Below, one piece after another: positions 775 through 51,065 of a stretch of 64,000 nt of DNA (positions within the stretch are counted from its first letter, which is position 1; each line of letters starts with the position of its first letter). Source of the stretch: Escherichia phage vB_EcoM_phAPEC6. The stretch lies in the sequence record MK817115.1, one strand, 5' to 3'. Below the pieces are notes generated by a model. It was not told the DNA's origin. It saw only the letters and a list, made by a program, of their open reading frames with translations, and did not search any database. Position numbers and translations under genes: made by a program.

Positions 775-1077
775 TTACATATTTGGTTCGTATTCAACAT
801 AGCAACGTGAACCTCGAACCTTTTCTTCCCAGCACTCCTGGTAAACAAGTTGACCAATTGAAACTGGTTCTCTTGATAGTCCATTACGTACTTCACCATT
901 TTGGGTTTTATACATAAATGAACATTTGGACTCGCTACATTGTCCTAAACTAACAACTTCTGCGGTATTGTAGTGAATGTTGGTACGCTTAGTGTTCTCG
1001 TGATACTGTCCGAACCAAAGAACTCCTGCACCTAACAGAACAGTACAAATAAGACTTTTGATGTGTGTTTGAATCAT
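775..1077 (-). CDS. small membrane-anchored protein (N-terminal hydrophobic segment)
   Basis: ORF track; ATGA overlap with upstream gene stop at 1074. Confidence 0.5.
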   Translation of the reverse strand: MIQTHIKSLICTVLLGAGVLWFGQYHENTKRTNIHYNTAEVVSLGQCSESKCSFMYKTQNGEVRNGLSREPVSIGQLVYQECWEEKVRGSRCYVEYEPNM

Positions 1078-1394
1078 AATGAGTTAAATCCATTGTTTAA
1101 GTATGTTTCAATATTAATTTTACCAACAGGATTACTACTGTGAACAAAGTACTCAAACGGTTCTTTAATATTATTATCAAACATATAATCAATAAGAAAC
1201 TTAGCAAAAGAATATCCAGTCTTTTCGTCTTCGCTCACATCACCCAAGTCATGGTCGAATGATACAAATGCTGGAATTCCATTTTCAATAACATATTCAC
1301 ATGCACTTTTAAAGTCACGACATACCACCATATCTTGGTTTGGATAATATAGATTTGCATCACGAATATCATCCAAAAACATTGAGTAAGACAT
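1074..1394 (-). CDS. hypothetical protein, possible receiver (REC)-like domain
   Basis: MFLDDIRD...VSFDHDLG...VHSSNPVG pattern resembles receiver-like domains seen with RNA-repair genes; weak by-eye call. Confidence 0.3.
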   Translation of the reverse strand: MSYSMFLDDIRDANLYYPNQDMVVCRDFKSACEYVIENGIPAFVSFDHDLGDVSEDEKTGYSFAKFLIDYMFDNNIKEPFEYFVHSSNPVGKINIETYLNNGFNSL

Positions 1395-1403
1395 GTTAAA
1401 CTC

Positions 1404-1955
1404 CTATAGATAACTAATTAGTAAGTTTTCTTTTTGAACCAGATACTCCAATTCTTGTCTTGCTGTACCGATGAAGTTCTGTGTCATAAGATTATTATAT
1501 CCCGCTTCTCGATTTTGTCCCTTAGAATAACGAGAAATATGACATAAATTTACACCAGCAACTTCTGCACTTGCATGTTTAGCATTAGTGTATCCATCTC
1601 TAATGTGTTTCAACTCGTCATAGGTTACTTCATAGCTAAAACTGTGACTGTTTGCACCTGGGTAAATTTCAAAAGTTTTGAGTGGTCGAAGATGGGAAAC
1701 AAAAATATTGTAATCCATTTCTTCTTGAACTTCACGACGCAACGCATCTTCTAGTGAGATATCAGTACTTTCTACGGTTCCACCACATCCACCAAGAAGA
1801 CCATCCCATCGTAATTGCAGTAATACTAAATTTACTTCTGGTATATCATTCAACTCATAGTTTTTGTAAGGGTTGCATTTTCTTGCAAAGAAATAACAAA
1901 ATACAAAATTTGCACGTGTGCCATATTCACCAAAGGGAACTTCTTTAACACTCAT
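1404..1955 (-). CDS. Nudix hydrolase
   Basis: Nudix box GGCGGTVESTDISLEDALRREVQEEMD (Gx5Ex7REUxEExGU pattern); ATGA overlap with Sir2 stop. Confidence 0.6.
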   Translation of the reverse strand: MSVKEVPFGEYGTRANFVFCYFFARKCNPYKNYELNDIPEVNLVLLQLRWDGLLGGCGGTVESTDISLEDALRREVQEEMDYNIFVSHLRPLKTFEIYPGANSHSFSYEVTYDELKHIRDGYTNAKHASAEVAGVNLCHISRYSKGQNREAGYNNLMTQNFIGTARQELEYLVQKENLLISYL

Positions 1956-2710
1956 TTCATACGTTCCTTAATTATAGTCTCTAGATGCGGTATTGCTTTG
2001 GTTGCTGGCTTGATAACTTTTTCATTAAACAAAAAATCATTATCATTTTTACGAATGTTAACATTAACACTATAACATGGTAATGCTGCTGCTAATCTCG
2101 ACCATACCAGTACTGTATCGCTACTACCAATTACAATAACTGTATCATTTTCATTAAGAGATTTCAACACATTATTTCGTTCTTCGTAAATTGGTAAGCG
2201 AATACCATCAACATAACGATGATATTCTCCAATCATTACTACATTTGGTTTAGCAAAAACATCATGTTTTGGTATGTATGGTTCGTATCCGCAGTTAATA
2301 ACATTATAATCATCGGAATTGATACTATAATTTTCAATAACTTCGCACAAGTTTCCATGAAGTTTAAGCTCATGACCACCAATACGAGTATAAAGATCGT
2401 CCATGTTAGAAGTCATATGAAGGAAGCAATCACCATATTGATCTTCTAACGATTTTATAAAATAATGCATTGCATTCGGTTCGCATTGTCCCAATTTTAC
2501 ACGTAATGTATTATAGAAAGAATGAACAACATGATATTTTGTAGTTAAACTAGCAATGTTACATACATCATTAATTTTAAATGTATCCCACAAACCATCA
2601 TCAAATCGAAAAGGTTCCATACCACTTTCAACAGAAAGTCCTGCACCTGATATAATCAGTAATCGCTTTTTACCTTCATTGCTTATAAATTTTTCTGATA
2701 TCATATTCAA
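1952..2710 (-). CDS. Sir2-family protein (NAD-dependent deacylase / NADase-like)
   Basis: ISGAGLSVESGMEPFRFDDGLWD matches sirtuin GAGIS..SGIPTFR motif; LHGNLCE matches catalytic HG region. Confidence 0.6.
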   Translation of the reverse strand: MNMISEKFISNEGKKRLLIISGAGLSVESGMEPFRFDDGLWDTFKINDVCNIASLTTKYHVVHSFYNTLRVKLGQCEPNAMHYFIKSLEDQYGDCFLHMTSNMDDLYTRIGGHELKLHGNLCEVIENYSINSDDYNVINCGYEPYIPKHDVFAKPNVVMIGEYHRYVDGIRLPIYEERNNVLKSLNENDTVIVIGSSDTVLVWSRLAAALPCYSVNVNIRKNDNDFLFNEKVIKPATKAIPHLETIIKERMK

Positions 2711-2907
2711 TCCTTATAAAAAACAATTAAATATATTGATAATAACAGAATGATTCCAATATGATAGGCATACATAAAATTATTATCTTTGTGATAACCA
2801 TTGGATTTCAAGTCCCTATATAAGCATTTAGCATTGTTATAAATTACAACAATAGAAAAAACTATAAAAAAACTCAAAACCCATTCATAAATTGTGTATG
2901 CCATCAT
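2707..2907 (-). CDS. small membrane protein
   Basis: Two hydrophobic segments; overlaps upstream stop. Confidence 0.45.
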   Translation of the reverse strand: MMAYTIYEWVLSFFIVFSIVVIYNNAKCLYRDLKSNGYHKDNNFMYAYHIGIILLLSIYLIVFYKD

Positions 2908-2934
2908 CTATTCTCTCTTATAATATTAGTACTT

Positions 2935-3528
2935 TTAATATTTTAAAACATCAAACTCTTCGCTTACGCTTGTTACATTATCACTAACAATTTTAAAAAT
3001 TGATTTGATACGTTCGTGTAGTGGTTTTTTAGATTCGTTCTCAACTTCAATATATGCTTGCATTGCTGCAATTGCATGATATGTCCCACTACCTACTGCG
3101 GTAATTCTTGTTTTAGGTTGTAGTACTGAAAAGTCTTCTTGAACTTCATAGATTGTATGATTGTGGAGAATGATAAATTGTCCACCTCCTACATCTTGTG
3201 ATGCATCTCGTGCACCCCATTCTTCTTTAAACATTTGACGAATAATTGGAATAACTTTAAGAACCAAATATTGTGAAAATGTTTGACTAGCATCTTGTTC
3301 AGGTAAATTAAGGTTATAATTTAACAACTGACCCATACGAAATGATGTAGTATAACCCAATGCCATTACTTCTTTAGTTCTAGTTAGTCCATCATCATGT
3401 AACTTGATAAATTCTTTCTCGAATACCTTTGGCTCAGTTTGAACAGTTTTTGTAAATCCATTGCTTCCTAACTTATCCCCAGCAATAAAAGAACTTACTC
3501 CGTCAGTGTGTGCAATAATACAGGTCAT
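2935..3528 (-). CDS. HslV/proteasome-beta-like Ntn-hydrolase peptidase
   Basis: After Met, TCIIAHTDGVSSFIAGD (N-terminal Thr nucleophile) and AVGSGTYHAIAAMQAY vs HslV AIGSGGPYAQAAARA; start set at ATG 3528 (track start 3597 is over-extended); ATGA overlap with 3525..3785. Confidence 0.6.
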   Translation of the reverse strand: MTCIIAHTDGVSSFIAGDKLGSNGFTKTVQTEPKVFEKEFIKLHDDGLTRTKEVMALGYTTSFRMGQLLNYNLNLPEQDASQTFSQYLVLKVIPIIRQMFKEEWGARDASQDVGGGQFIILHNHTIYEVQEDFSVLQPKTRITAVGSGTYHAIAAMQAYIEVENESKKPLHERIKSIFKIVSDNVTSVSEEFDVLKY

Positions 3529-3785
3529 AAAATAGCTCCAATTGCAAATAATGTTGTGTATAAGATATAAATTAGTGCTCCTAACAACATTAGGCACACC
3601 AAGTATGAAGTTGATAGTACATAATAAATTATTGCTTCGAATTTTGAATTGAACTTCATTGTAGTTGAATCAATAAAGCCATTACGATAATCTTTGTAAA
3701 TGAAAACTGTTAGAAAAATAACTGTAGCATACATTACTACAGTAGCATAAAAAATAATAGATGTCAAGTTTTGGATGTTTGTCAT
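3525..3785 (-). CDS. small integral membrane protein
   Basis: Hydrophobic throughout; ORF track. Confidence 0.5.
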   Translation of the reverse strand: MTNIQNLTSIIFYATVVMYATVIFLTVFIYKDYRNGFIDSTTMKFNSKFEAIIYYVLSTSYLVCLMLLGALIYILYTTLFAIGAIL

Positions 3786-3855
3786 AGTTATATAATCTCA
3801 ATATAATTAATAACAAAGGAAGTACATCATAATCATCCTGTTATTTTAATTATTT

Positions 3856-4464
3856 TTATTGTTTGACTGAACCGTAAAAAACCAGTTCTGGTTTTGTTAA
3901 TATTACAACATCTTCACCACGAGAACGACTAACTCTAAATAGAACTTCTGGTGGGATTCCATTTGCTGCATATAGTGAAAAAAGGAAACCTACCTTTGTT
4001 GCCATTTCTTCGGTAAAAGTTGATAACTGTCTTACAGACACAAATGAATTATCACCATCAGTAACATTACTTTTAATCGAAATGTTATGAAGACCCAGTA
4101 CTGAGCGATTTGTCATATATCGCTTTTCGGGAGATACACTAAAGAATACCACAGTACATGCTGAATTGCAATACCTAGAAACAATTAAATTTATCCCATT
4201 GTCTCTAACAAAGTTTGCCATTCGAATACCTGCATCAAAATCACCACCAGGAGATGTAATTGTGATGGTATCATAGTGTTCTTTATCATACAACTCTATC
4301 ATACGCTTGAGTGACCCATCTGTAATATCTGATATGAAATATACATTTCGGGTTTCAGGATTATACTTTATCACATTTTTACTTTCAATACCAGCACTGG
4401 CTGGAAAATTTATTAACAATAGAAACATTGCTGCTTGTATCACTTCAAGCCATAGTCTTTTCAT
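3856..4464 (-). CDS. secreted Clp-protease-fold (S14/S49-like) protein
   Basis: Signal-peptide-like MKRLWLEVIQAAMFLLLINFPASAG; TSPGGDFDAGIRMANFV...CNSACTVVFF resembles ClpP SPGG/AASMG region; track start 4479 is a TTG, ATG at 4464 has a GAGGA RBS. Confidence 0.45.
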   Translation of the reverse strand: MKRLWLEVIQAAMFLLLINFPASAGIESKNVIKYNPETRNVYFISDITDGSLKRMIELYDKEHYDTITITSPGGDFDAGIRMANFVRDNGINLIVSRYCNSACTVVFFSVSPEKRYMTNRSVLGLHNISIKSNVTDGDNSFVSVRQLSTFTEEMATKVGFLFSLYAANGIPPEVLFRVSRSRGEDVVILTKPELVFYGSVKQ

Positions 4465-4499
4465 ATAACAAGTCCTCAATTTTGTTTAGGAAGATATAA

Positions 4500-4528
4500 A
4501 TAATATAGTACTTAAACACTTAAGTCAA
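4500..4528 (-). promoter_or_regulatory. sigma70-like promoter (-35 TTGACT, 17-nt spacer, -10 TATTAT) upstream of 3856..4464
   Basis: Minus-strand reading of 4500-4528. Confidence 0.35.
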
Positions 4529-4689
4529 ACTTTTTCTGTACTTAACTCAAATTTTTAAAAATAAAACTTAAGGTGTACAGTTTATAACAGATCATATCAT
4601 ACCACTGATGTTTTGTCAACTAGTTCATGGTGCATCTGATGTAAAAAACAAATATATTTCATACTTATATTTAAAAAAGGAAATAAAAT

Positions 4690-5067
4690 ATGAAAGCTAT
4701 CGCAGCACAAGGTAAACTACCATTCAATATCGGCGGGTTTTGTGTAACCGCAGCTAATATAAACGGTGAATTGAAATATAACTTGAACATCTTTAATCAA
4801 CGTTCTAGTTGTGTTTACGATCTCATTGATACTGATTTTAATGTTTATCGTTTTGTAACTATCACTAGTTATGATAAAGATAAAATTAGATTAGATGCAT
4901 CTAAAACAGCATTGGAAATTGCACCAACTCTAGCCAAAAATACTTTTTGTATTAAGATTGACGATAGTGCATTTGCTGAATCATTCCAGTTTCATAAAAT
5001 TAAATTGAGTACTGGGGCGATGAAATATCACCCTTGGGATTTGTATTATTGCAACCTCCCAGGTTAA
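4690..5067 (+). CDS. hypothetical protein (only convincing plus-strand gene)
   Basis: Strong RBS AAAAAAGGAAATAAAAT-ATG; ends at bidirectional terminator. Confidence 0.6.
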   Translation: MKAIAAQGKLPFNIGGFCVTAANINGELKYNLNIFNQRSSCVYDLIDTDFNVYRFVTITSYDKDKIRLDASKTALEIAPTLAKNTFCIKIDDSAFAESFQFHKIKLSTGAMKYHPWDLYYCNLPG

Positions 5068-5097
5068 CAAAAAAGGAGCCTTGTGGCTCCTTTTTTT
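5068..5097. terminator. bidirectional rho-independent terminator between convergent genes
   Basis: AAAAAAGGAGCC-TTGT-GGCTCCTTTTTTT: GC stem flanked by A-run and T-run. Confidence 0.7.
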
Positions 5098-5353
5098 ATT
5101 CTACAGTATTAAGCTTCTGACAAATCATATCAGCTTCTACTCGGTCTTTATAATAAATGGTAAATCCAAATCTACTTGTTACCCTTTTCTCACTACGGTG
5201 TATACAGTTTACAATATAGTACTTATTATTTTGTGCAGAAAAACGAACTTCATAATTTCGAAAAGAAGTATTAGGTTCATCCATAGCAACTATATATAAC
5301 ATAAAAATAAAAAACACTGTTATTAGAAAAGCAATAATAATTATTACTGTCAT
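5096..5353 (-). CDS. small membrane-anchored protein
   Basis: N-terminal TM helix MTVIIIIAFLITVFFIFMLYIVA. Confidence 0.5.
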   Translation of the reverse strand: MTVIIIIAFLITVFFIFMLYIVAMDEPNTSFRNYEVRFSAQNNKYYIVNCIHRSEKRVTSRFGFTIYYKDRVEADMICQKLNTVE

Positions 5354-5829
5354 TTATCAAGACCCTTATCATAAATGCAATTAACAATAATTCCAGCATC
5401 TTCCAGTACTTTAATAGCTTCTGGTGGTGTACGAGGATAATTTTTGAGATAAATTACACGTGAAATCCCACTACCTGCGATCAACTTAGAACAAGTATAA
5501 CATGGTTGTAGTGTTGTGTAAAGAGTAGCACCTTGACGTTCAGTAGGAGAACTATAGAGTAAAGCGTTCATTTCAGCATGGATTTCATGAATATTACTCC
5601 ACTCATGATGTTCATGCTTTGCTTCATCACTAACCCAGTCTTGAAAACGTCCATCATTGACTAAGTGTTGATTCACATCACAACAATTTGGTTGTTTTGA
5701 TGGAGTACCATTGTATCCAGTACTCAATACTCGGTTATTTTTAACAATAACACAACCAACTTTTTGTGAAATACATTTACTTTCCTCAGCAACTACTTCT
5801 GCTATCTTCAACCAAGTCGTATGTTTCAT
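5350..5829 (-). CDS. cd: dCMP deaminase
   Basis: HAEMNAL and PCYTCSKLI zinc motifs; N-terminus MKHTTWLKIAEVVAEESKC aligns with T4 Cd MKASTVLQIAYLVSQESKC; track start 5841 probably 4 codons too long. Confidence 0.85.
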   Translation of the reverse strand: MKHTTWLKIAEVVAEESKCISQKVGCVIVKNNRVLSTGYNGTPSKQPNCCDVNQHLVNDGRFQDWVSDEAKHEHHEWSNIHEIHAEMNALLYSSPTERQGATLYTTLQPCYTCSKLIAGSGISRVIYLKNYPRTPPEAIKVLEDAGIIVNCIYDKGLDK

Positions 5830-6310
5830 TATAAGCTCCAATACTTAACAATGCGTTTTTACACAAATCATGAATTTTCATAACTCGAATATAGTTTAAC
5901 ACATCTGTTTCATTAATTTCAAATGGTTTATCTGCATATGTGGACCACGTTTGATTTAATTCAATAACAAATGTAATTTTATCTGTATCCATAATATTAT
6001 CACAAAATCTACGAAAATCTTGCTCTTCATCGGAAAGTCTGAAATTTAAATCATTTTTTAAACCATTAACTGTGAAGCAAATACCAGTACTGTAACCGAT
6101 GCAAATATCTTCAATATCATATAATCCATAAATTAATTTAGAGATAAACGTGCTATATTTGTTTCTATGATAATAGTTTAATATTTCTTGTTTAATATTA
6201 ATTTCAATATCAGTAGTTTTTTGTAATGTAAGTTTAATTAATTCTAATGTCTTGATTATGTTATCTAACCAGATATTAGTATCATCTATACTTAGGTGTG
6301 TGTATTTCAT
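5786..6310 (-). CDS. hypothetical protein
   Basis: ORF track; tight packing. Confidence 0.45.
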   Translation of the reverse strand: MKYTHLSIDDTNIWLDNIIKTLELIKLTLQKTTDIEINIKQEILNYYHRNKYSTFISKLIYGLYDIEDICIGYSTGICFTVNGLKNDLNFRLSDEEQDFRRFCDNIMDTDKITFVIELNQTWSTYADKPFEINETDVLNYIRVMKIHDLCKNALLSIGAYNETYDLVEDSRSSC

Positions 6311-6836
6311 TATGTCCCTCTAGATTCCAATCATCAACGAGTTTAGAACAAACTTCCATATGATTATAGTACTTTTCATCCAATACATACGGTTTATTAT
6401 GATATTGTCGTACATCAGTGAATATATCATAATTTCTATATATGAATGACATATTTTTATGCATTAATTCTATAGTTTTCCAAATTTTCTCAATATCATA
6501 TAGAATTGTTTCTAATGACAAACCTGTTAACTTGGAAATTCTTTCAACTTTAAACCCTGATAACATCATAGTACTGTTGTGTTTAGTTAAGTAACTATAT
6601 CCAATAGAACTATGTATTAACTCAATACTATCAGTGTATGTGATTGTTTTTAGAAATGATTTTATATTTCTATTAAACCAATACCACTTTTTGTTTTTAT
6701 TATAACAACTATACCATTTCTTCAATATATCAATTGCTTCAGAATTAATTTTTAAAGCAAATTCATCAATTAAAAACATATGATGGTAAAAAATATCACT
6801 TTGTTCTTCAGTTAAATTATATTGCTGCATATTCAC
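6282..6836 (-). CDS. hypothetical protein
   Basis: ORF track. Confidence 0.45.
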   Translation of the reverse strand: MNMQQYNLTEEQSDIFYHHMFLIDEFALKINSEAIDILKKWYSCYNKNKKWYWFNRNIKSFLKTITYTDSIELIHSSIGYSYLTKHNSTMMLSGFKVERISKLTGLSLETILYDIEKIWKTIELMHKNMSFIYRNYDIFTDVRQYHNKPYVLDEKYYNHMEVCSKLVDDWNLEGHNEIHTPKYR

Positions 6837-6915
6837 CTACCCTAGTAACAATGATTCCTTGGGTATTTAGCTCATATAGATCAAAATATGATCAATGGAA
6901 AATTGATATACAGCA

Positions 6916-6946
6916 ATAAAAATAGGAATCCCATGATAGGATTCCT
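6916..6946 (-). terminator. rho-independent terminator downstream of 6957..7403
   Basis: AGGAATC-CCATGATAG-GATTCCT hairpin followed by T-run on minus strand. Confidence 0.5.
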
Positions 6947-6956
6947 TTTCACAATA

Positions 6957-7403
6957 TTATTTTTGATATGGGGTGTACTGATATTTTTCACAATCAGCGA
7001 CAGTTAGAACACCTTCATCATAACCATATTGAAGTACAAGGTCAAATGCTTTATCAACCATAGCAACAACATCTTTATAACGAACAATCTTATGAGATTG
7101 ATTCTCAACTGCTTTCATAATCCCCATTAGCAACCAGCGACCTTCATCGGTGTGTAATTTAGCAAAGCGTGGACGCTTTGTCGCTGCCATAATATCAGTC
7201 CATTCAGCTTTAAAAATGTGTGGACGTTTTGGAATATCATATAGTGTAGTAGGGAAAGTTACATTATTTTTCTTCATTGCTTCTGCTTGTGCTGCACGAT
7301 AGCCCTGACGATATAATGGATGCTGCATTTTTAGCTGTTCAGCACTTAGAACTACTTTTGCTTTGTATGCGTCATAACCATCTTTATATTGTGCATTGGA
7401 CAT
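6957..7403 (-). CDS. hypothetical protein
   Basis: ORF track. Confidence 0.5.
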   Translation of the reverse strand: MSNAQYKDGYDAYKAKVVLSAEQLKMQHPLYRQGYRAAQAEAMKKNNVTFPTTLYDIPKRPHIFKAEWTDIMAATKRPRFAKLHTDEGRWLLMGIMKAVENQSHKIVRYKDVVAMVDKAFDLVLQYGYDEGVLTVADCEKYQYTPYQK

Positions 7404-7404
7404 A

Positions 7405-7722
7405 TTATTCTTTTACCTCATCAGTTTGAATGTATTTTTTGTCAGAGAATGTACCGTGTTCTTTACGCACAGCTTCTGCATGTTGAACCGCATCAACTGG
7501 ATTAATGTTCTTTTTAATTAGTACTTCCTTCATTAATTCAAGTACAATTGCAAAACCATTCAGCACACGCTCAGATTCATCTACATTTTTTAATTCAAGT
7601 GCTACTGCACTAATTTGATCGAACGCAACATTAATAAAATCGGAATCTTCTAATACATTTGCAACTTCAGTATTATTACGCACTAGTACTTTCATATAAT
7701 CTCCACAAAGATGATGCCCCAT
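7405..7722 (-). CDS. hypothetical protein
   Basis: ORF track; directly upstream of clpP in transcription order. Confidence 0.5.
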   Translation of the reverse strand: MGHHLCGDYMKVLVRNNTEVANVLEDSDFINVAFDQISAVALELKNVDESERVLNGFAIVLELMKEVLIKKNINPVDAVQHAEAVRKEHGTFSDKKYIQTDEVKE

Positions 7723-7743
7723 ATTGAGGCATCAAAATCTATC

Positions 7744-8439
7744 TTACACCCACTCTTCCACGCCACCGCGACGCTTAACTAAGTACTTGCCTTCTTCGTT
7801 ACGTGGTCCAAGAATAATACCATCAATGAAACCATGTTCACCATATTCAAGAGCTTCTTCTGCATTTAACCACAAATCACGGTCAGCATCTTTAAGTAGT
7901 TGTTCGTGTGTTACACCAACTGCTTCTGCAATTTCTTTAGTCAATAGAGTGTTTAGGGCATCAGAATGTTTAAGTGAAATCTTCTGGTCAGTAATTAGAC
8001 CTTGTGTACCAGAACTTACTTGGTGACACATGAAATAAGAACGCTTACCACCTAAACGGAAACCTTTAGTACCAATTACAGATTGTGTATAGCAACCCAT
8101 TGATGCTGCATAGCCCATTACTACAGTGCGAATTGGAGAAATACAAGACTTAGCAACATCTGCAATACCCAAACCTGCGTGTACTGAACCACCCGGTGAA
8201 CTAATGTAGAATGTAATAGGGGAATCACCTTGTGAGTCTAACCATACCAATTGTTGTTTGATGATATGTGCCATTTGATCATTGAAATCAGTATCAAGGA
8301 AAATGATACGGTCTTGCATCATACGAGATGCTAGATCATATGTACGTTCTGAACCATTAACTTTCTCAACTACGTAAGGAATAGAAATGTTACGTACTTC
8401 GCCATTAGCATAACCACCAAACATGAATTGTTCAACCAT
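7744..8439 (-). CDS. clpP: ATP-dependent Clp protease proteolytic subunit ClpP
   Basis: YISSPGGSVHAG, MGYAASMG (Ser), MCHQV (His), DRDLWLNAEEALEYG (Asp) align with E. coli ClpP INSPGG / GQAASMG / MIHQP / DRDRFLSAPEAVEYG. Confidence 0.9.
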   Translation of the reverse strand: MVEQFMFGGYANGEVRNISIPYVVEKVNGSERTYDLASRMMQDRIIFLDTDFNDQMAHIIKQQLVWLDSQGDSPITFYISSPGGSVHAGLGIADVAKSCISPIRTVVMGYAASMGCYTQSVIGTKGFRLGGKRSYFMCHQVSSGTQGLITDQKISLKHSDALNTLLTKEIAEAVGVTHEQLLKDADRDLWLNAEEALEYGEHGFIDGIILGPRNEEGKYLVKRRGGVEEWV

Positions 8440-8473
8440 TATTAATTTCCTCTATTATTTCGTTGTTGTGAGT

Positions 8474-8502
8474 ATTATATCACTAAGATTTAAAATGTCC
8501 AA
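8474..8502 (-). promoter_or_regulatory. sigma70-like promoter for clpP (-35 TTGGAC, 17-nt spacer, -10 TATAAT)
   Basis: Minus-strand reading; -10 at 8474-8479, -35 at 8497-8502, RBS GAGGAAA before ATG 8439. Confidence 0.45.
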
Positions 8503-9305: not shown

Positions 9306-10097
9306 TTAAATTTCAAATACAAATTTAGGATTGTAATCAAAATTCTCACAAGCTCCACTGTATGATTCATAGCCTCGTGGATTACAAATGATACGTGTCT
9401 TACCAATGTGGTAGTCAAAACTACTATGAACATGACCATGAATCCAAACATCAGCACCCAAATCTTCAATGTACTGATCCATATCGGAACAGTAACAACC
9501 ATTCAGTGAATCATTTTTATATTTTGGTGAAACACTTTGATAACTTGGTGCGTGATGGGTAACCACGATTACCTTGAAATCATTATCATGCATAAAGCGA
9601 ACTGTGTCAATAGAATTTTTGATAAATTGTTTATCTTTGTGATGCATAAACTCAGTATCATCTGGTGTCAGTTTCTTACGCCAAGGCTCTGATGTTGTTC
9701 CATGACGGATATGTTTGTAATCGTTCATCTTCAGACGAGCATCAAACTTCGTCAAAGAATTACCTTTATCGAAGTCTGTCCACAGAGTACTACCAACAAG
9801 CAGTACTCCATCCAGCCATACAAATTTGTTTTGCAAAAAGATGAAATTAGGAATCTCATCTTGCATATCGGACAGTACTTTATGCGTTTTGTGGATATTG
9901 GAACCATAATATTCATGATTGCCAGGAACCAGTACTACATTCTTAAACTGCTTACATAGTGATTCTATACCAGTACGGTAACGACTGCGTTTAACTTCAT
10001 CGAAGTCCCCAGCAATAATCAGTACTGTATCACTGTAATCACCACTATGGAGGTAATCAGTACCACCGTGTACGTCAGACGTTACAACAAATTTCAT
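9306..10097 (-). CDS. calcineurin-like metallophosphoesterase
   Basis: Motifs DVHGG, GDFDE, GNHEY, GHVH. Confidence 0.7.
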   Translation of the reverse strand: MKFVVTSDVHGGTDYLHSGDYSDTVLIIAGDFDEVKRSRYRTGIESLCKQFKNVVLVPGNHEYYGSNIHKTHKVLSDMQDEIPNFIFLQNKFVWLDGVLLVGSTLWTDFDKGNSLTKFDARLKMNDYKHIRHGTTSEPWRKKLTPDDTEFMHHKDKQFIKNSIDTVRFMHDNDFKVIVVTHHAPSYQSVSPKYKNDSLNGCYCSDMDQYIEDLGADVWIHGHVHSSFDYHIGKTRIICNPRGYESYSGACENFDYNPKFVFEI

Positions 10098-10116
10098 AAT
10101 TACCTCCTATAAGTGT

Positions 10117-11535
10117 TTAGCCAAGTGATTCAATGATACTGTTTGAGAACACCTCAACAGCACTATCACGAATTTCTAAAATACGAGTATAGTCGTCACA
10201 AGTGTTTTTGTCAAATCTAAATTCAATAAACACTGGTAAGAACAGTGATGGCTCACCAGTACGCTTGTCGAATACAATGTCATTACACTCAACTGTAACC
10301 ACTTTACCAATAAGTTCTTGCATTCTTTCCCAAATGGTTTTAAATGTCCATTCAGCATCTTTCTCTTTGATACCAGTACCCACATTAACTTTCAATGAAC
10401 CACAAGCACTTTCCAGTTGTAAAGAACCTAGGCTTCCTTTACGTTTACCTTCACCTTCATTGAAACCAACAATACGCAAGTCTAGTTGCATTTTCAATTT
10501 CATTTTCAACTGCTTCGGAGAAGTGTGAGATTTCCAGATACCATCTTCACATTTCAGTACTGAACCCTCTTCACCTTCGTTCATTAGTTCACTATTGTAC
10601 TCAAATGCTTCTTTGATGTTTAGAACTTTACGGAATCCAACCATACGAACAAAATCACTATTGAGTTCGTTAATTGCATCTACTAAGATCTCGCGACGTT
10701 CTTTACGTTTTACATCCCATACACCTTCACAAAATGCATCATATGGAACAACATCCCATAGAACGAATACAGTACGCATTGCTTCATTCTGACTGATGCT
10801 ATCTTTACCAGCTTTCTGAATTATACCGTTGCCAGTAGTGCGTGGGAGAATGGTTTCCCCATCATTGTCCAGTACTACACCTTCCCCCATAAAGACCACA
10901 CCACTACTAAAACGTTCATCTTTACTTTGGATGATGTGAGCAAGACCTGCCATCTCACCATCACGACAACCCAGGAAGTCGTATAGTTTACCATTACGGG
11001 ATGTAGAAGTTAATGAACCATTAATAACAACGTGGTTCAAGTACTGACCATCCATTTTCACTTCTGATATAGCGTAACCATAATCTTTGAAGTTGATGTT
11101 CTTTGCAGTCTTTTTGTCAATCAAAGAACAACGCATATATGGTTCGTCTTTAATAAAGCCTTTACCAAATACATCATTGCAGTTCTTTTCTTGAATACCA
11201 CAATCAAGGTTTTTAGTAAGCATTTTACGGAGAACTTCCTGATCATCTTCAGATACAGAACCCAGTACTGAAGCAATGAAATCACGCCCCGCATTTCCTG
11301 TCACATCACGCTTGTAAATGCATTCTAGCTTATCAATTGCTTCATCTAACGTCATATGTTGATATACGTCATCAGCGGCAGGGAGCTTCTTATAGCCACT
11401 AACGATAGAAGGGTCTAGAGTATATTTCAGTACTTTTTGTAAAGTTACATTATCTTTATTTTGTTCAAGAATAGCTTTTTTGCCTAGTGTACTGCTAGTA
11501 TTTTTAATGCTTTCAAGAATTGCTAAAATGCTCAT
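10117..11535 (-). CDS. ATP-dependent DNA ligase (T4 gp30-like)
   Basis: EVKMDGQ (KxDG adenylation motif); N-terminus MSILAILESIKNTSSTLGKKAILEQNKDN aligns with T4 ligase MILKILNEIASIGSTKQKQAILEKNKDN. Confidence 0.9.
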   Translation of the reverse strand: MSILAILESIKNTSSTLGKKAILEQNKDNVTLQKVLKYTLDPSIVSGYKKLPAADDVYQHMTLDEAIDKLECIYKRDVTGNAGRDFIASVLGSVSEDDQEVLRKMLTKNLDCGIQEKNCNDVFGKGFIKDEPYMRCSLIDKKTAKNINFKDYGYAISEVKMDGQYLNHVVINGSLTSTSRNGKLYDFLGCRDGEMAGLAHIIQSKDERFSSGVVFMGEGVVLDNDGETILPRTTGNGIIQKAGKDSISQNEAMRTVFVLWDVVPYDAFCEGVWDVKRKERREILVDAINELNSDFVRMVGFRKVLNIKEAFEYNSELMNEGEEGSVLKCEDGIWKSHTSPKQLKMKLKMQLDLRIVGFNEGEGKRKGSLGSLQLESACGSLKVNVGTGIKEKDAEWTFKTIWERMQELIGKVVTVECNDIVFDKRTGEPSLFLPVFIEFRFDKNTCDDYTRILEIRDSAVEVFSNSIIESLG

Positions 11536-14883: not shown

Positions 14884-15213
14884 TTATTCCTCATCATCCA
14901 CTAAAACAAGATAATCCAAACTCAACTCGGTATCTATGTAACAATCACAATTCAAGTACTCAATTTCAGCACCTATAGTTCTCCCATTCTTAAATATCTC
15001 AATGATTTTCATTCTAGTATTGGGATTAATGTGTTCAATGTCGTATTCGTATTCAGGGTCAATATACTCACTTGTCATACGTTTGATGTATTGTTCCGAA
15101 TATCGTACAGTTTTACCTATAAGATCATTACTCAACGTCTGATAAAAATCATCTTGAATTTTGAATAATGACCTATAAAAAATATTATGTTGAATTAGTG
15201 GTTTCATTGACAT
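14884..15213 (-). CDS. small helix+beta family protein (family C)
   Basis: SNDLIGKTVRYSEQ motif. Confidence 0.5.
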   Translation of the reverse strand: MSMKPLIQHNIFYRSLFKIQDDFYQTLSNDLIGKTVRYSEQYIKRMTSEYIDPEYEYDIEHINPNTRMKIIEIFKNGRTIGAEIEYLNCDCYIDTELSLDYLVLVDDEE

Positions 15214-15830
15214 TAATCACAACTTCCAGACGATGAACTTGAATCAGAACTAGAGCTATCATAGGAACAAGAATCAGAGGAAGAACTGCTGTGACGGCTA
15301 TAATCACTGTAATCATCATTGTTGTAGATTGGTGATGTTACGATTGCTGCTGCGGTCGCTGCCGTTGCAATTTGTGCAGTATGGTCATGAACATCTAGTT
15401 TTGGTTCATCCTTAGATTTACCTTTGTTCTTACCTTTAGTGTAACGAGCTTTCTTTGCAGTTTTAGTATTTTTCTGTACTTTAGGAGCTTTTGGTTTCAC
15501 ATCTTCAACTACTGGAACTACATTCACTACAACTTTAGGATCAGTTTCTTCAAGTGTATTATACACTTTAACTTGCATTTGAACTTCAACTTCTTTAACT
15601 TCTGGAATAACTGTTTCTGGTGCTGGAGTGATTTTATCAAGTTCTTTAGTAATAAAGAAGCTTGTATTTTTCTCACCTAGCATAACAAGAAGACCAATGG
15701 CAATCACTGGACTTAGTACTGTACCAAGTACTACATAACCTAGAACACTTCTGTTATAGTTATATGCAAGCATACCAGAAATAATAATACCGATTACATA
15801 TGCACTGCTAAGAATAATTGGGGTTAACAT
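15213..15830 (-). CDS. membrane protein with Lys-rich and Ser/Asp/Cys-rich low-complexity tail
   Basis: N-terminal TM helices, then KVQKNTKTAKKARYTKGKNKGKSK and SSSSSDSCSYDSSSSDSSSSSGSCD. Confidence 0.5.
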   Translation of the reverse strand: MLTPIILSSAYVIGIIISGMLAYNYNRSVLGYVVLGTVLSPVIAIGLLVMLGEKNTSFFITKELDKITPAPETVIPEVKEVEVQMQVKVYNTLEETDPKVVVNVVPVVEDVKPKAPKVQKNTKTAKKARYTKGKNKGKSKDEPKLDVHDHTAQIATAATAAAIVTSPIYNNDDYSDYSRHSSSSSDSCSYDSSSSDSSSSSGSCD

Positions 15831-45416: not shown

Positions 45417-45838
45417 ACAATACCTCTCTTATGATGCAAACATTCTTGCATAATGTGTTGTATTTTTCGTAACAGAAACACATCCAGTTCATTAAAAACA
45501 GTACTGTACTGGAACATCTCTTCTTCCCCGTACTCAGTTAAATCATCAATTTCATCTCTAGAAACAGCTACAATATTAAAACCACGTGTACTACAATAAC
45601 CCTTAGTAAGATAATATATGTACTTGTACTCTCCGTTGATATCTAAGAGATCTTGTGTGATACAGAAGCTTTTGGGTGACAGTTTATCATCAGGAACCAT
45701 ATGCCTTGCTTGTACATAGCAACGGATACCATCACCTATACTATATGTAATAACTTCAAATTCAATCTTCATAGGTGAATATAATCCTTTTATATTGCTC
45801 AGGTGCAGTACTGAAACGTTTGATTGGATAATTATCAA
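45395..45838 (-). CDS. EE-FQ family paralogue
   Basis: EEEMFQYSTVFN. Confidence 0.55.
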   Translation of the reverse strand: MIIIQSNVSVLHLSNIKGLYSPMKIEFEVITYSIGDGIRCYVQARHMVPDDKLSPKSFCITQDLLDINGEYKYIYYLTKGYCSTRGFNIVAVSRDEIDDLTEYGEEEMFQYSTVFNELDVFLLRKIQHIMQECLHHKRGIVCDVNLN

Positions 45839-46124
45839 AGATTCTTTTCATTTCTTTCTGGATTAAACATAAGAAATCAAAGTTACAATCGTACTTATTA
45901 TCCCATACTAAACTTTCTTGGAATAACTCATCCTCTTGCATTAGTGTAGTGTCAATTACATCTTCACGGACATAGCTATATACTTCATAGCTCTTGAAGC
46001 CATCTTCTGATAATTCTAATTCATATGCAGCCATATCAAACATATCATCATGGTTTGTCTTCAAAGATATTAAACAAGTAACTAATTTTTTAGTTGTATA
46101 GTATGTAATACTTAATGTGTTCAT
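45762..46124 (-). CDS. EE-FQ family paralogue
   Basis: EDELFQESLVWD. Confidence 0.55.
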   Translation of the reverse strand: MNTLSITYYTTKKLVTCLISLKTNHDDMFDMAAYELELSEDGFKSYEVYSYVREDVIDTTLMQEDELFQESLVWDNKYDCNFDFLCLIQKEMKRIFDNYPIKRFSTAPEQYKRIIFTYED

Positions 46125-46129
46125 TTGTT

Positions 46130-46732
46130 TTATACCTCAGTATATAGCTTACAATAGCTTTCATCGAAATTACAAACACTTCTCAAGTACTGACACAGGT
46201 CATTGAAAATATTTACATTTGATATATATACATTATCAAATTCTGTTCGTTGAAAGAATGTATACATAGAATTTGTAATATATCGCATTGCATCTTCACG
46301 TCCCATAGTTATATCATTTGTGAACATTGCATCTTCATCAGTACTGATGTGTTCTATTTTAAATGATTTCATAAATGGAATACTCTTTCCTAGGGCATAA
46401 CCATCACCATATGATGCTTCTACTGCACCTTTGGAATAAAGGAATTGATATAAGTCCGAATCACGATTATAAAAAGTACGACATACGGAGGAACATAATT
46501 TATTATCTATATGAAATAAAAATCTTTTAGCATTTTTGTCTAATACTATTCGCAATGCATCACTCTCTAGAAATATATCACCATCAAGCATAAATGAGAA
46601 CTGTACTAATGCTTTTTCTAAATCCGCTCGTTTGTGATAAATCATTTCCTGCATATATATAATATCATTTGCTAATTTCTTAAAAAACAAATGCACATCT
46701 GCACTACAACATTTATTTGCATTTATTGACAT
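46130..46732 (-). CDS. hypothetical protein, divergent EE-FQ-like
   Basis: DEDAMFTNDITMG. Confidence 0.45.
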   Translation of the reverse strand: MSINANKCCSADVHLFFKKLANDIIYMQEMIYHKRADLEKALVQFSFMLDGDIFLESDALRIVLDKNAKRFLFHIDNKLCSSVCRTFYNRDSDLYQFLYSKGAVEASYGDGYALGKSIPFMKSFKIEHISTDEDAMFTNDITMGREDAMRYITNSMYTFFQRTEFDNVYISNVNIFNDLCQYLRSVCNFDESYCKLYTEV

Positions 46733-47283
46733 AATAGTTCCTTATACATATGATGTACTTTACAAATCTCATTATAGTATTTCATATCAATGTCATTTGT
46801 ATTAAAAACGGAAACAGACAATACTGCTAACTTATCAATTAAGTAATTATTATCGGCGTACTGTTTTAACTTATTGAACATATAGATGCATTTTATACTT
46901 AATTCATCATGCAACACACTGTTCTGAAAAATATTCTCTTCAGTATTAGGAGATAAGTAATCTTCAATTATATACGATAAACTACTATCGCAATCTTTAT
47001 AGATTGAAATTGATGGATGTAATGTGTCATACATTACACTAAACAGATCACCGTCATATGTGGATATTAAACTATTATTGGAAACAGTAGGATGATAATA
47101 TTTCAGTACTGAAAACTTTGAACAATCAGTGCAGTAAAAATGATCCATCCCTCGACGACTTTCGTATGAGAATAGTTTACTTGTATATTCAATCCCTTTG
47201 GTGCGACGGATTGTTTCATGCATTTCTGCACATTGCATTAAAATTACCATACGTTCAAACGCAAGATCTAAATCATCGTACAT
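46723..47283 (-). CDS. EE-FQ family paralogue
   Basis: EENIFQNSVLHD. Confidence 0.55.
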   Translation of the reverse strand: MYDDLDLAFERMVILMQCAEMHETIRRTKGIEYTSKLFSYESRRGMDHFYCTDCSKFSVLKYYHPTVSNNSLISTYDGDLFSVMYDTLHPSISIYKDCDSSLSYIIEDYLSPNTEENIFQNSVLHDELSIKCIYMFNKLKQYADNNYLIDKLAVLSVSVFNTNDIDMKYYNEICKVHHMYKELLCQ

Positions 47284-47464
47284 AACGGATATCCTTCTTC
47301 AACGAATTAATATATTCCAAAATAACTTGTTCCTGATATTGGGTTCCCAAGTACATCAGTACTTTCAACTCTTTGAATTCAGTACTATATGAGTCTGTTT
47401 GCATCATTCTAGTAGAATATATATTGAATAGTTTAGCAATATCATCTTGGTCTATTATTTTCAT
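47273..47464 (-). CDS. LGT-QE family small protein (dispersed copy)
   Basis: LMYLGTQYQEQVILEYINSL. Confidence 0.5.
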   Translation of the reverse strand: MKIIDQDDIAKLFNIYSTRMMQTDSYSTEFKELKVLMYLGTQYQEQVILEYINSLKKDIRYVR

Positions 47465-47660
47465 TAACCCTCTTCTGTATTAGTTCCTGTAAGTGCTGAA
47501 TATAACCCTTCATTGCAACATCCTGTTTGTTAGAGCCAACGAAGAACAAGAGCTTAAAGTCATGGTAATCCATTTTTGGTTTAGTAGTGAACCATATGTC
47601 CCACACTGCACTCACAGTTCTCATGTATTCAATTCGATTAAATGTTTTTGAATACTTCAT
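47442..47660 (-). CDS. LGT-QE family small protein (divergent)
   Basis: LFFVGSNKQDVAMKGYIQHL. Confidence 0.45.
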   Translation of the reverse strand: MKYSKTFNRIEYMRTVSAVWDIWFTTKPKMDYHDFKLLFFVGSNKQDVAMKGYIQHLQELIQKRVNENNRPR

Positions 47661-48620: not shown

Positions 48621-48925
48621 AATAATTCAACCACTCCATCTCTAAAGTACATATAACTACCACCATTGGATACTGTGAATTCTATTGTCCCCAATAATAT
48701 ATTATATTTTTTTATTTCACATGTAGTACTTGTAGTGTAAGGCTCACCATCTCCTAAGTACATTGACATATGACATAGAACTTTTCTACCAGCATATTTC
48801 TCTTCAAACGATTGTTCAAAACTATGCATAATTTGATTTAAAGCTGAAATGTAATTAATAAAGTCAGGTATTTCTGTCAATGAATTATAAACCGTACAAA
48901 GTGAATCAAATTCATTTTTAGTCAT
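48617..48925 (-). CDS. small helix+beta family protein (family C)
   Basis: FEEKYAGRKVLCHM. Confidence 0.5.
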   Translation of the reverse strand: MTKNEFDSLCTVYNSLTEIPDFINYISALNQIMHSFEQSFEEKYAGRKVLCHMSMYLGDGEPYTTSTTCEIKKYNILLGTIEFTVSNGGSYMYFRDGVVELL

Positions 48926-51064: not shown

Positions 51065-51065
51065 T

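What the first reader, a model, noticed from the sequence alone, without database searches (positions are those of the whole stretch)
2935..8439. Three protease-fold genes in one phage region: HslV-like, secreted Clp-fold and ClpP
The ClpP call is strong (Ser/His/Asp triad context conserved). The HslV-like protein retains the N-terminal Thr after Met and a GSGxxxAxAA motif. A third protein has a signal peptide plus an SPGG...NSAC Clp/S49-like core. None has an obvious partner unfoldase (ClpX/ClpA/HslU) in this window, so they may use host ATPases. Possible roles are targeted proteolysis of host defence or regulatory proteins, or periplasmic processing for the secreted one.
Basis: partly seen in the sequence, partly recalled or inferred. 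Interest (0 to 1): 0.6.

Follow-up and report, generated by a model that had tools for sequence, protein, structure and literature searches.

The report
Three protease genes in jumbo coliphage
A giant E. coli phage of the Rak2-like group carries a true ClpP, a divergent proteasome/HslV-type peptidase and an exported ClpP-fold peptidase; all three are already annotated in public records, and the ClpP has its own phage-encoded ClpA partner elsewhere in the genome, so it need not borrow a host motor.

Summary
The window is an Asteriusvirus (PBECO4/G17/121Q-like jumbo coliphage, 99% identity). All three genes are real, at the stated coordinates, on the minus strand.

- **7744-8439:** a canonical ClpP with an intact Ser113/His139/Asp188 triad, 37% identical to E. 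coli ClpP.
- **3856-4464:** an exported ClpP-fold protein with a family-invariant SxGG, CxSxC and His.

The window holds no unfoldase, but the near-identical reference genome encodes a full-length ClpA homologue (44% identical to E. coli ClpA, docking loop SIGL changed to SIGM) and a ClpS-domain protein. No ClpX, HslU or Lon homologue was found. The true head protease is a separate S77 enzyme beside the capsid gene.

The HslV-like family also occurs in many T5-like phages. All three genes were annotated in phage 121Q in 2014, and the Clp set has been discussed in the literature. This is known at annotation level and functionally untested, so interest is modest.

The parts
7744..8439 (-). Canonical ClpP proteolytic subunit, 231 aa. 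It has an N-terminal extension of about 18 aa (probable propeptide) and a C-terminal extension of about 20 aa.
   Evidence: Pfam PF00574 3.8e-41. TIGR00493 scores 151 bits, below the equivalog cut-off of 308.6. PDB ClpP chains match at up to 4.6e-36. It is 37% identical to E. coli ClpP, with S113/H139/D188 aligned to S97/H122/D171.
8474..8501 (-). Sigma-70-like promoter candidate upstream of ClpP (TGGACA, 16-nt spacer, TG-TATAAT). GAGGA lies about 9 nt before the ATG.
   Evidence: This is a consensus match only: such sites are not enriched in the region (39 found against 36.7 expected).
7712..7734 (-). Terminator-like hairpin plus a T-rich tail, about 10 nt after the ClpP stop codon.
   Evidence: Terminator-like sites: 5 found against 1.9 +/- 1.3 expected.
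3856..4464 (-). Exported ClpP-fold Ser/His peptidase candidate, 202 aa. The signal peptide ends FPASA|G. Motifs: S71-x-G73-G74, C99-x-S101-x-C103, H126.
   Evidence: AF2 pLDDT 90.7, with helix 2-18 followed by a disordered stretch at 23-28. The top 50 Foldseek PDB hits are all ClpP, TM 0.55-0.73. The motifs are invariant in 35 relatives down to 17% identity. BLASTP against the phage's own ClpP aligns S101 with S113 and H126 with H139. 32 of 35 relatives have an N-terminal hydrophobic export segment.
4500..4528 (-). Sigma-70-like promoter candidate (TTGACT, 17-nt spacer, TATTAT) upstream of the exported Clp-fold gene. A second candidate lies at 4591-4619.
   Evidence: Consensus match only.
3525..3785 (-). 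Hydrophobic 86-aa (membrane) protein between the two protease genes. Its stop codon overlaps the HslV-like start (ATGA).
   Evidence: No Pfam or PHROG family. An 87-aa ORF holds the same position in a relative at 42% identity. Annotated as gp474 in 121Q.
2935..3528 (-). Proteasome-beta/HslV-fold N-terminal-threonine peptidase, 197 aa, from a phage-specific clade (phrog_1040).

Best explanation
These are three independent, real peptidase genes in the early/metabolic gene block of a Rak2-like jumbo coliphage (Asteriusvirus).

1. **7744-8439** is a bona fide ClpP. Its most likely partner is the phage's own ClpA-type double-ring unfoldase, with a ClpS-like adaptor. Both are encoded about 258 kb away in the reference genome. 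Together they would give the phage a private ATP-dependent ClpAP protease in the cytoplasm. It is not the capsid maturation protease.
2. **2935-3528** is a divergent proteasome-beta/HslV-type threonine peptidase. Methionine removal would expose Thr1 and activate it. It belongs to a phage-specific clade that has no phage-encoded unfoldase. It therefore either works as a stand-alone ring peptidase (as BPH is thought to) or borrows host HslU.
3. **3856-4464** is exported through Sec and acts in the periplasm or on the envelope. There it would be an ATP-independent Ser101/His126 peptidase of the ClpP fold.

Shown here: folds, catalytic residues, export signals, presence of the ClpA/ClpS genes, and their distribution across phages. 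Inferred: physical ClpA-ClpP pairing, enzymatic activity, oligomeric states, substrates and timing of expression.
For: **Identity of the window**
- Megablast gives 99.0-99.4% identity to PBECO4, G17, Sharanji and others.

**ClpP**
- Family and triad.
- The N-terminal axial-loop region aligns with that of E. coli ClpP.

**Partner for ClpP**
- PBECO4 gp539 hits Pfam AAA, AAA_lid_9, AAA_2 and ClpB_D2-small.
- It scores 754.7 bits in one stretch, 3-740 on 5-732 of 734, on TIGR02639 ClpA. ClpB models split into two stretches.
- It is 44% identical to E. coli ClpA. Both Walker A/B pairs, KYRG and GYVG are conserved, and SIGL is replaced by SIGM.
- gp457 hits Pfam ClpS at 2e-5.
- ClpA homologues at 99% identity or more are found in 20 records. 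Both ClpA and ClpP occur in Escherichia, Klebsiella, Erwinia, Yersinia, Salmonella, Pseudomonas and Agrobacterium Rak2-like phages.
- Attai et al. 2018 (PMC6102473) state that ClpA is conserved in most Rak2-like phages.

**Not a head protease**
- gp520 is Peptidase_S77 (9.9e-21) and sits beside the major head protein gp518 and the portal gp523.
- The same enzyme is reported as the prohead protease in phAPEC6 (PMC7247149), Sharanji (PMC11895373) and RaK2 (PMC3622015).

**HslV-like protein**
- Fold and catalytic residues.
- 196 phage records carry it, and 155 of them match at under 60% identity. Those sampled are mostly Salmonella/Escherichia T5-like (Epseptimavirus-type) genomes of 107-122 kb.
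- No AAA+ gene lies within 6 kb in three distant contigs.
- No HslU was found in the whole PBECO4 genome.

**Exported protein**
-.
Against: - No experiment exists on any of the three proteins.
- The ClpA and ClpS genes lie outside the given window. Their presence in this exact phage is inferred from near-identical genomes.
- Of 12 E. coli ClpP pocket positions that I recalled as contacting the IGF/IGL loop, three are changed (Y60T, F82S, L114G). Docking therefore cannot be read off the sequence.
- The ClpS-like protein differs at the positions I recall as the N-degron pocket.
- ClpP scores below NCBIfam's equivalog cut-offs.
- The HslV-like protein fails the HslV equivalog models (about 20 bits against 137-158) and has no Pfam Proteasome hit. 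Whether it forms a hexamer or a heptamer is unknown, as is whether the Asteriusvirus-specific insertion of about 20 aa (residues 38-57) affects any docking surface.
- The position that aligns with the ClpP Asp in the exported protein is not conserved across the family. Its Pfam CLP_protease score (17.5) is below the gathering score (20.2).
- A single ClpP peptide was seen in phage CBB virions (PMC5259590).
Confidence: 0.65

Rival explanations
1. The phage ClpP works with host unfoldases (E. coli ClpX or ClpA), or co-assembles with host ClpP into mixed rings. This would retarget the host's machinery rather than build a private phage ClpAP.
For: It is 37% identical to E. coli ClpP. The axial-loop residues (P, V, E, E-R) and 9 of 12 recalled pocket positions are conserved or conservatively replaced. 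No phage ClpX exists. Iyer et al. 2021 (PMC7824862) treat jumbo-phage ClpP as a likely anti-host peptidase.
Against: A full-length phage ClpA that retains a docking tripeptide (IGM) co-occurs with ClpP across the clade. Pocket changes (Y60T, F82S, L114G) and a clade-specific C-terminal extension suggest a co-evolved interface. The two readings are not mutually exclusive.
Confidence: 0.2
2. The ClpP (and, in some records, the exported Clp-fold protein) is the head maturation protease, as PHROG-based annotations say.
For: phrog_94 'head maturation protease' 3.6e-44. This label appears in several GenBank and RefSeq records. One ClpP peptide was found in CBB virions (PMC5259590).
Against: A dedicated T4 gp21-type S77 prohead protease lies beside the capsid and portal genes, and it is detected in RaK2 and phAPEC6 virions (PMC3622015, PMC7247149). 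The ClpP gene sits among ligase, deaminase, Sir2 and Nudix genes, roughly 225 kb from the capsid module. NCBIfam Clp_rel_HeadMat scores 51 bits against a cut-off of 120, while ClpP models score about 151-155. phAPEC6's table of virion proteins lists no protease other than the prohead core scaffold/protease gp227c.
Confidence: 0.03
3. The HslV-like protein docks onto host HslU, displacing or supplementing host HslV and so redirecting a host unfoldase.
For: The fold and all catalytic positions match HslV. There is no propeptide, as in HslV. No phage HslU exists, and the family occurs in enterobacterial phages whose hosts have HslU.
Confidence: 0.3
4. The exported Clp-fold protein, the 86-aa membrane protein and the HslV-like protein form one envelope-spanning functional cassette.
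For: The gene order is conserved at 42% identity. The 86-aa ORF and the HslV-like gene are translationally coupled. A membrane protein also precedes the HslV-like gene in Epseptimavirus S133.
Against: The parts occur separately. The exported protein is in 9 Klebsiella phage records, but the HslV-like protein is in only 2. The T5-like phages sampled carry the HslV-like gene, but no T5-like genome is among the 49 records that match the exported protein.
Confidence: 0.08

Closest known systems
Bacterial ClpAP(S) protease (E. coli ClpP, MEROPS S14, with ClpA and ClpS)
   Same: The phage ClpP keeps the Ser-His-Asp triad, the SPGG oxyanion region, the axial-loop residues and the overall length. The phage ClpA keeps N-D1-D2 architecture, both Walker A/B pairs, the pore loops and the docking tripeptide position. 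A ClpS-domain protein is also present.
   Different: Identity is 37% (ClpP) and 44% (ClpA). All score below NCBIfam equivalog cut-offs. ClpP has N- and C-terminal extensions and three changed pocket positions. The docking loop is IGM rather than IGL. The ClpS-like protein is 181 aa with extra N- and C-terminal parts. The three genes are scattered over the genome rather than forming a clpS-clpA operon.
HslV (ClpQ) and the Betaproteobacteria proteasome homologue BPH (MEROPS T1)
ClpP-fold exported or membrane serine peptidases (SppA, MEROPS S49; NfeD/1510-N)
   Same: It has the ClpP fold and sits outside the cytoplasm, so it must work without ATP. There are weak profile hits to NfeD1b_N and 1510-N.
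   Different: These families use a Ser-Lys dyad (established knowledge). Here a His aligned with the ClpP His is invariant, flanking Cys residues (CxSxC) are invariant, and the best structural matches are ClpP proper. No Pfam or NCBIfam family covers it above cut-off.
Clp gene sets of other Rak2-like jumbo phages (for example Agrobacterium phage Atu_ph07, Attai et al. 2018, PMC6102473)
   Same: That paper lists phage-encoded ClpP, ClpA and ClpS and notes that ClpA is conserved in the clade. Roles are proposed but untested.
   Different: Atu_ph07 is also annotated with ClpX and ClpB. In PBECO4, tblastn found no separate ClpX-like gene, and no ClpB is annotated or seen among the genes scanned (ClpB itself was not used as a tblastn query).

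Membership tests
ClpP (MEROPS S14, Pfam PF00574) - gene 7744-8439 | Profile match above the curated threshold | tested here: met
   PF00574 scores 141.4 bits against a cut-off of 20.2, covering 2-179 of 182 profile positions. The NCBIfam equivalog TIGR00493 scores 151 against 308.6, which is not met, so this is a divergent member.
ClpP (MEROPS S14) - gene 7744-8439 | Ser-His-Asp catalytic triad at the canonical positions | tested here: met
   S113, H139 and D188 align with E. coli S97, H122 and D171.
ClpP (MEROPS S14) - gene 7744-8439 | A cognate Hsp100 unfoldase with an IGF/IGL docking loop | tested here: met
   The ClpA homologue gp539 in the near-identical PBECO4 genome carries SIGM at the SIGL position. 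It lies outside the window. Physical docking is not testable with these tools.
ClpP (MEROPS S14) - gene 7744-8439 | Double-heptamer barrel assembly | not testable with these tools
   No multimer modelling was available.
ClpP-related head maturation protease (NF045542; phrog_94 label) - gene 7744-8439 | Model score above cut-off and a position in the capsid module | tested here: not met
   It scores 51 bits against a cut-off of 120. The gene lies roughly 225 kb from the capsid, portal and S77 protease genes.
HslV proper (TIGR03692, NF003964) - gene 2935-3528 | Equivalog model score | tested here: not met
   It scores 18.9 and 19.9 bits against cut-offs of 157.75 and 137, and only residues 119-171 match.
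HslV proper - gene 2935-3528 | A partner HslU encoded with it | tested here: not met
   tblastn of E. coli HslU over the whole PBECO4 genome hits only the ClpA Walker region (4e-4) and the P-loop of gp010 (E 5). gp010 is a divergent AAA+ ATPase (PHROG 'ATPase', weak Pfam AAA hits) that shares only its P-loop with HslU and ClpX. Its motifs look MoxR/AAA_5-like by my reading.
Proteasome-beta/HslV superfamily (MEROPS T1, Ntn hydrolases) - gene 2935-3528 | N-terminal Thr nucleophile plus Asp17, Lys33, Gly45/47 and Ser124/129 equivalents | tested here: met
   T2, D18, K34, G146 and G148 are invariant, G58 is at least 90% conserved, and S147 is present in this protein. hhalign places them on the HslV positions.
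Proteasome-beta/HslV superfamily - gene 2935-3528 | Fold | tested here: met
ClpP/S14 - gene 3856-4464 | Profile match above threshold, and the full Ser-His-Asp triad | tested here: inconclusive
   PF00574 scores 17.5 bits against 20.2, which is not met. Ser101 and His126 align with the ClpP Ser and His and are invariant. The Asp-equivalent column is variable. The fold is ClpP.
S49 SppA / NfeD - gene 3856-4464 | Ser-Lys dyad and a family profile match | tested here: not met
   NfeD1b_N scores 13.5 bits against 40. The invariant partner residue is His, not Lys.
   The top 50 Foldseek PDB matches are all ClpP chains.
Sec-exported protein - gene 3856-4464 | N-terminal positive residues, a hydrophobic core and a small-x-small cleavage site | tested here: met
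   It has K2 and R3, a hydrophobic 11-mer with a KD mean of 2.67, and ASA|G. AF2 predicts helix 2-18 followed by disorder. 32 of 35 relatives have such a segment, some with lipobox-like L-x-G-C. No dedicated signal-peptide predictor was available.

The most novel reading that the evidence does not exclude
Two of the three genes may stand for uncharacterised protease classes.

(a) A phage-specific proteasome-beta clade is present in about 200 phage genomes, mostly T5-like phages. It either captures host HslU in place of host HslV or is a free-standing phage 'mini-proteasome'.

(b) A widespread exported ClpP-fold family has an invariant CxSxC around the nucleophile and a Ser-His pair: 1889 representatives at E of 0.001 or below. 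It would be an ATP-independent compartmental peptidase of the cell envelope, which jumbo phages have borrowed to remodel the periplasm (for example for superinfection exclusion or control of lysis timing).
Probability: 0.25. Interest if true: 0.6.

Novelty: already known. Interest (0 to 1): 0.3.

Why it matters
If the phage really builds its own ClpA-ClpP-ClpS machine, it controls protein turnover in the infected cell independently of the host. That could remove host defence or regulatory proteins, or time the decay of phage early proteins. The idea can be tested directly with purified components and host clp mutants.

The HslV-like clade and the exported ClpP-fold family are the less-charted parts. 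Both are common in sequence databases and neither has an assigned function. As it stands, though, the finding repeats existing genome annotation of a well-sampled phage genus and brings no new mechanism.

Tried and rejected
1. **Crotonase-type enzyme for 3856-4464.** Rejected: the top 50 solved-structure matches are all ClpP.
2. **ClpP as head maturation protease.** Rejected: a separate S77 protease sits in the capsid module.
3. **gp010 as a hidden HslU or ClpX.** This 441-aa 'ATPase' is the same size as HslU. Rejected: only the P-loop is similar, and by my reading of the sequence its motifs look MoxR/AAA_5-like.
4. **Other 'AAA family ATPase' annotations.** gp484 is a DnaB-type helicase and gp528 is Rad50-like.
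5. **Obligate three-gene cassette (exported Clp / 86 aa / HslV-like).** Rejected on phyletic distribution.
6. **PADLOC defence models.** No hit for any of the three proteases.
7. **Single-sequence searches of PDB.** They gave only noise for the two divergent proteins. Profiles and structure models were needed.
8. **Word-indexed homologue search for 3856-4464.** It found only 16 close relatives, even with a profile. The exhaustive HMMER search found 1889.
9. **Sigma-70 promoter scan.** Sites are not enriched over shuffles (39 against 36.7), so the promoter calls are only suggestions.
10. **AFDB50 fold library.** It was unavailable.
11. **Literature on the HslV-like proteins.** A literature search returned no functional study of phage HslV-like proteins among the listed hits.

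Full report
**What the window is.** Megablast of 2900-8500 finds 21 phage records that cover at least 80% of the query. Eleven are at 99% identity or more, including Escherichia phages BAU.Micro_ELP-22, vB_EcoM_G17, Sharanji and slurp01; PBECO4 matches at 98.9%. Phage 121Q matches at 92%. These are Asteriusvirus, the Rak2-like jumbo myoviruses of about 350 kb. The window is AT-rich (about 32% GC) with a steady negative GC skew. Almost all genes lie on the minus strand.

*ClpP, 7744-8439.*
- It is a 231-aa protein that matches Pfam CLP_protease at 3.8e-41 over the whole profile.
- It matches solved ClpP structures at up to 4.6e-36.
- It is 37% identical to E. coli ClpP. Ser113, His139 and Asp188 align with the E. 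coli triad Ser97, His122 and Asp171. The oxyanion Gly and Met are conserved, as are the axial-loop residues Pro, Val, Glu and Glu-Arg.
- It carries about 18 extra N-terminal residues where E. coli ClpP has its 14-residue propeptide, and about 20 extra C-terminal residues.
- It has a good Shine-Dalgarno sequence (GAGGA), an extended -10 promoter-like site upstream and a hairpin plus T-tract just after the stop codon. These are consensus matches only. Promoter-like sites are not enriched in the region.

*HslV-like gene, 2935-3528.*
- It encodes 197 aa starting MTC.
- In 39 homologues down to 26% identity, M1, T2, C3, D18, K34, G146 and G148 are invariant, and G58 is nearly so.
- A profile-profile alignment with E. 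coli HslV (probability 95.7%) puts these on Thr1, Asp17, Lys33, Gly45 and the Gly-Ser124-Gly motif. That is the catalytic set of proteasome-type threonine peptidases (established knowledge).
- The AlphaFold model is confident, with pLDDT 92.7.
- The protein is not an HslV in the strict sense. It scores about 20 bits on HslV equivalog models whose cut-offs are 137-158. It has no Pfam Proteasome hit. It is only 14-21% identical to any solved relative. It is best described as a phage clade of the T1 family (phrog_1040, 4e-24).

*Exported Clp-fold gene, 3856-4464.*
- It encodes 202 aa. The first 24 residues look like a Sec signal peptide: K2, R3, a hydrophobic core and ASA|G. The model shows a helix at 2-18 followed by a disordered linker.
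- Single-sequence searches are weak (Pfam CLP_protease 0.004, below threshold). A word-indexed search found only close relatives.
- An exhaustive HMMER search with the family profile found 1889 relatives at E of 0.001 or below.
- Across 35 of these, down to 17% identity, the invariant residues are S71, G73, G74, C99, S101, C103 and H126.
- BLASTP against the phage's own ClpP, and a profile search of PDB, align S101 and H126 with the ClpP nucleophile Ser and the catalytic His.
- The position that aligns with the ClpP Asp is variable across the family.
- The model (pLDDT 90.7) has ClpP as its top 50 solved-structure matches (TM 0.55-0.73), not crotonase enzymes. The second refutation test therefore also fails.
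- 32 of the 35 relatives have an N-terminal export segment, some with a lipobox-like motif. Export is thus a property of the family.
- No Pfam or NCBIfam family covers it above cut-off.

**The unfoldase question.** I fetched all 348 kb of PBECO4 and searched it with E. coli ClpX, HslU, Lon, ClpP and HslV.
- Apart from ClpP itself, the only significant AAA+ hit was at 330788-333076, gene gp539, labelled 'ATP-dependent protease'.
- gp539 is a 762-aa protein with Pfam AAA, AAA_lid_9, AAA_2 and ClpB_D2-small domains.
- It matches the ClpA equivalog model end to end at 754.7 bits. ClpB and ClpV models match only in two separated pieces.
- It is 44% identical to E. coli ClpA over the full length. 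Both Walker A/B pairs and the KYRG and GYVG pore loops are conserved. At the place where E. coli ClpA has SIGL (the IGL ClpP-docking loop, recalled from the literature) it has SIGM.
- gp457 (181 aa) contains a ClpS domain, Pfam 2e-5.
- ClpA homologues occur at 99% identity or more in 20 phage records. ClpA and ClpP co-occur in the Escherichia, Klebsiella, Salmonella, Erwinia, Yersinia, Cronobacter, Pseudomonas (PA5oct/MIJ3-type) and Agrobacterium members of the Rak2-like clade.
- The other 'ATPase' annotations resolve as follows:
  - gp484 is a DnaB-type helicase.
  - gp528 is a Rad50-like protein.
  - gp010 is a divergent AAA+ that shares only its P-loop with HslU and ClpX. By my reading of the sequence, its motifs look MoxR/AAA_5-like.

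The most economical reading is that the ClpP in the window is the proteolytic core of a phage-encoded ClpAP(S) machine. Cross-talk with host ClpX or ClpA, or mixed rings with host ClpP, is not excluded. Nine of twelve pocket positions I recalled are conserved or conservatively replaced, and three are changed (Y60T, F82S, L114G).

**Not the head protease.** Several records label the ClpP 'head maturation protease', because PHROG family 94 carries that name. Four observations argue against the label.
- The genome has a T4 gp21-type prohead protease (gp520, Peptidase_S77, 9.9e-21) next to the major head protein and the portal.
- That enzyme is the one reported in RaK2, phAPEC6 and Sharanji (PMC3622015, PMC7247149, PMC11895373).
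- The ClpP gene sits among DNA ligase, dCMP deaminase, Sir2, Nudix and PhoH genes.
- The NCBIfam model for ClpP-related head proteases scores 51 bits against a cut-off of 120.

**Distribution and context of the other two genes.**

*HslV-like family.*
- It is in 196 phage records, and 155 of them match at under 60% identity. Those sampled are mostly Salmonella/Escherichia T5-like (Epseptimavirus-type) genomes of 107-122 kb. It also occurs in Aeromonas, Vibrio, Geobacillus and Moorella phages.
- In Epseptimavirus S133 it sits among nrdAB, DHFR, thymidylate synthase and RNase H genes.
- In an 87-kb metagenomic phage contig it sits between PhoH and the dCMP deaminase and DNA ligase genes.
- No AAA+ gene is nearby in these contexts.
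- The family therefore works without a phage-encoded unfoldase. Either it stands alone, as proposed for BPH (PMC5777263), or it uses host HslU. The data cannot decide between these.

*Exported Clp-fold protein.*
- Among phages it is restricted to 49 records, nearly all of them jumbo phages of 345-386 kb.

*Gene order.*
- The order exported Clp / 86-87-aa membrane protein / HslV-like / Sir2 / Nudix / PhoH is conserved in a relative at 42% identity.
- The 86-aa ORF overlaps the HslV-like start codon.
- The parts nonetheless occur independently in other lineages. I therefore do not treat them as one system.

**Comparison with what is known, and novelty.**
- The 2014 record of phage 121Q already annotates the three genes as 'protease (ClpYQ-like)', 'protease (ClpP-like)' and 'protease (ClpP-like)'.
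- RefSeq PBECO4 names them 'peptidase HslV family', 'protease' and 'head maturation protease'.
- Attai et al. 2018 list Clp-family genes in a Rak2-like phage and note that ClpA is conserved in the clade (PMC6102473).
- Iyer et al. 2021 discuss ClpP and ClpS in jumbo phages as likely anti-host devices (PMC7824862).
- My searches turned up no functional work on any of these phage proteins.

The finding is therefore real but already known at annotation level. Three points are worth correcting or adding.
- ClpP has a phage ClpA partner.
- The 'head maturation' label is very probably wrong.
- 'HslV-like' is a fold-level description of a separate phage clade.

The least-charted element is the exported ClpP-fold family with its CxSxC-His signature.

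**Verdict.**
- Observation: confirmed.
- Interpretation: partly supported.
- Novelty: already known.
- Interest: 0.3.

Noticed in passing
Outside the window: PBECO4 NC_027364.1 330788-333076 (L011:31788-34076, minus strand): A full-length ClpA-type Hsp100 unfoldase, 762 aa. It is 44% identical to E. coli ClpA, with SIGM at the ClpP-docking SIGL position. It is labelled only 'ATP-dependent protease' or 'hypothetical' in several records.
   Followed up: yes
Outside the window: PBECO4 249684-250229 (L010:684-1229, minus strand): A 181-aa protein with a central ClpS adaptor domain (Pfam 2e-5), an N-terminal extension of about 70 aa and a C-terminal extension of about 30 aa. At the positions I recall as the ClpS N-degron pocket (E. 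coli D36 and H66) it has other residues (P and N), so its specificity may differ.
   Followed up: partly
Window 7744-8439, and 3856-4464 in related records: PHROG-derived annotations call the ClpP 'head maturation protease', and in fEgEco12, vB_Ec-M-J and WPEC5 the exported Clp-fold protein too. In OQ708376.1 the feature listed under the exported protein's match is 'nudix hydrolase'. These are probably annotation errors that are propagating through new records.
   Followed up: partly
Window 1074-2710, minus strand: Directly downstream of the HslV-like gene lie a Sir2-family protein (1952-2710), a Nudix hydrolase (1404-1955) and a small cREC/REC-like protein (1074-1394), followed by PhoH. This block is conserved in relatives and may bear on NAD or ADP-ribose metabolism during infection.
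   Followed up: no
Window 45762-53185, minus strand: Two families of five paralogous genes each, mostly in tandem. One has four tandem copies at 51567-53185 and a fifth at 45762-46124. The other has five copies at 49236-51557. All are annotated as hypothetical proteins in PBECO4.
   Followed up: partly
Window 7744-7810 (C-terminus of ClpP): The C-terminal extension of about 20 aa (…GPRNEEGKYLVKRRGGVEEWV) is retained in the Klebsiella, Erwinia, Yersinia and Salmonella Rak2-like phages, where tblastn coverage runs to residue 231. It is absent from E. coli ClpP and from the Pseudomonas and Agrobacterium phage ClpPs. In ClpP structures the C-terminus lies near the unfoldase-docking face (recalled knowledge).
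   Followed up: no
Window 3364-3423 (residues 38-57 of the HslV-like protein): The Asteriusvirus-group members have an insertion of about 20 residues, modelled as a confident beta-hairpin, that is absent from the shorter homologues of 174-190 aa in other phages.
   Followed up: no
Window 4690-5067, plus strand: This is the only plus-strand gene in the region. It is annotated as a virion structural protein with an Ig domain (121Q gp471) and sits between the exported Clp-fold gene and the dCMP deaminase gene.
   Followed up: no
Outside the window: PBECO4 10012-11337 and 14966-15508: gp010 is a divergent 441-aa AAA+ ATPase of unknown role (phrog_1297). Its motifs look MoxR-like by my reading. gp015 is labelled 'Hsp70 heat shock protein' but is only 180 aa and has no Pfam hit, so the label looks doubtful. 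The genome also has a GroES-like gene (gp507).
   Followed up: partly
Window 1-64000: ARAGORN finds no tRNA or tmRNA genes in this 64-kb stretch.
   Followed up: yes
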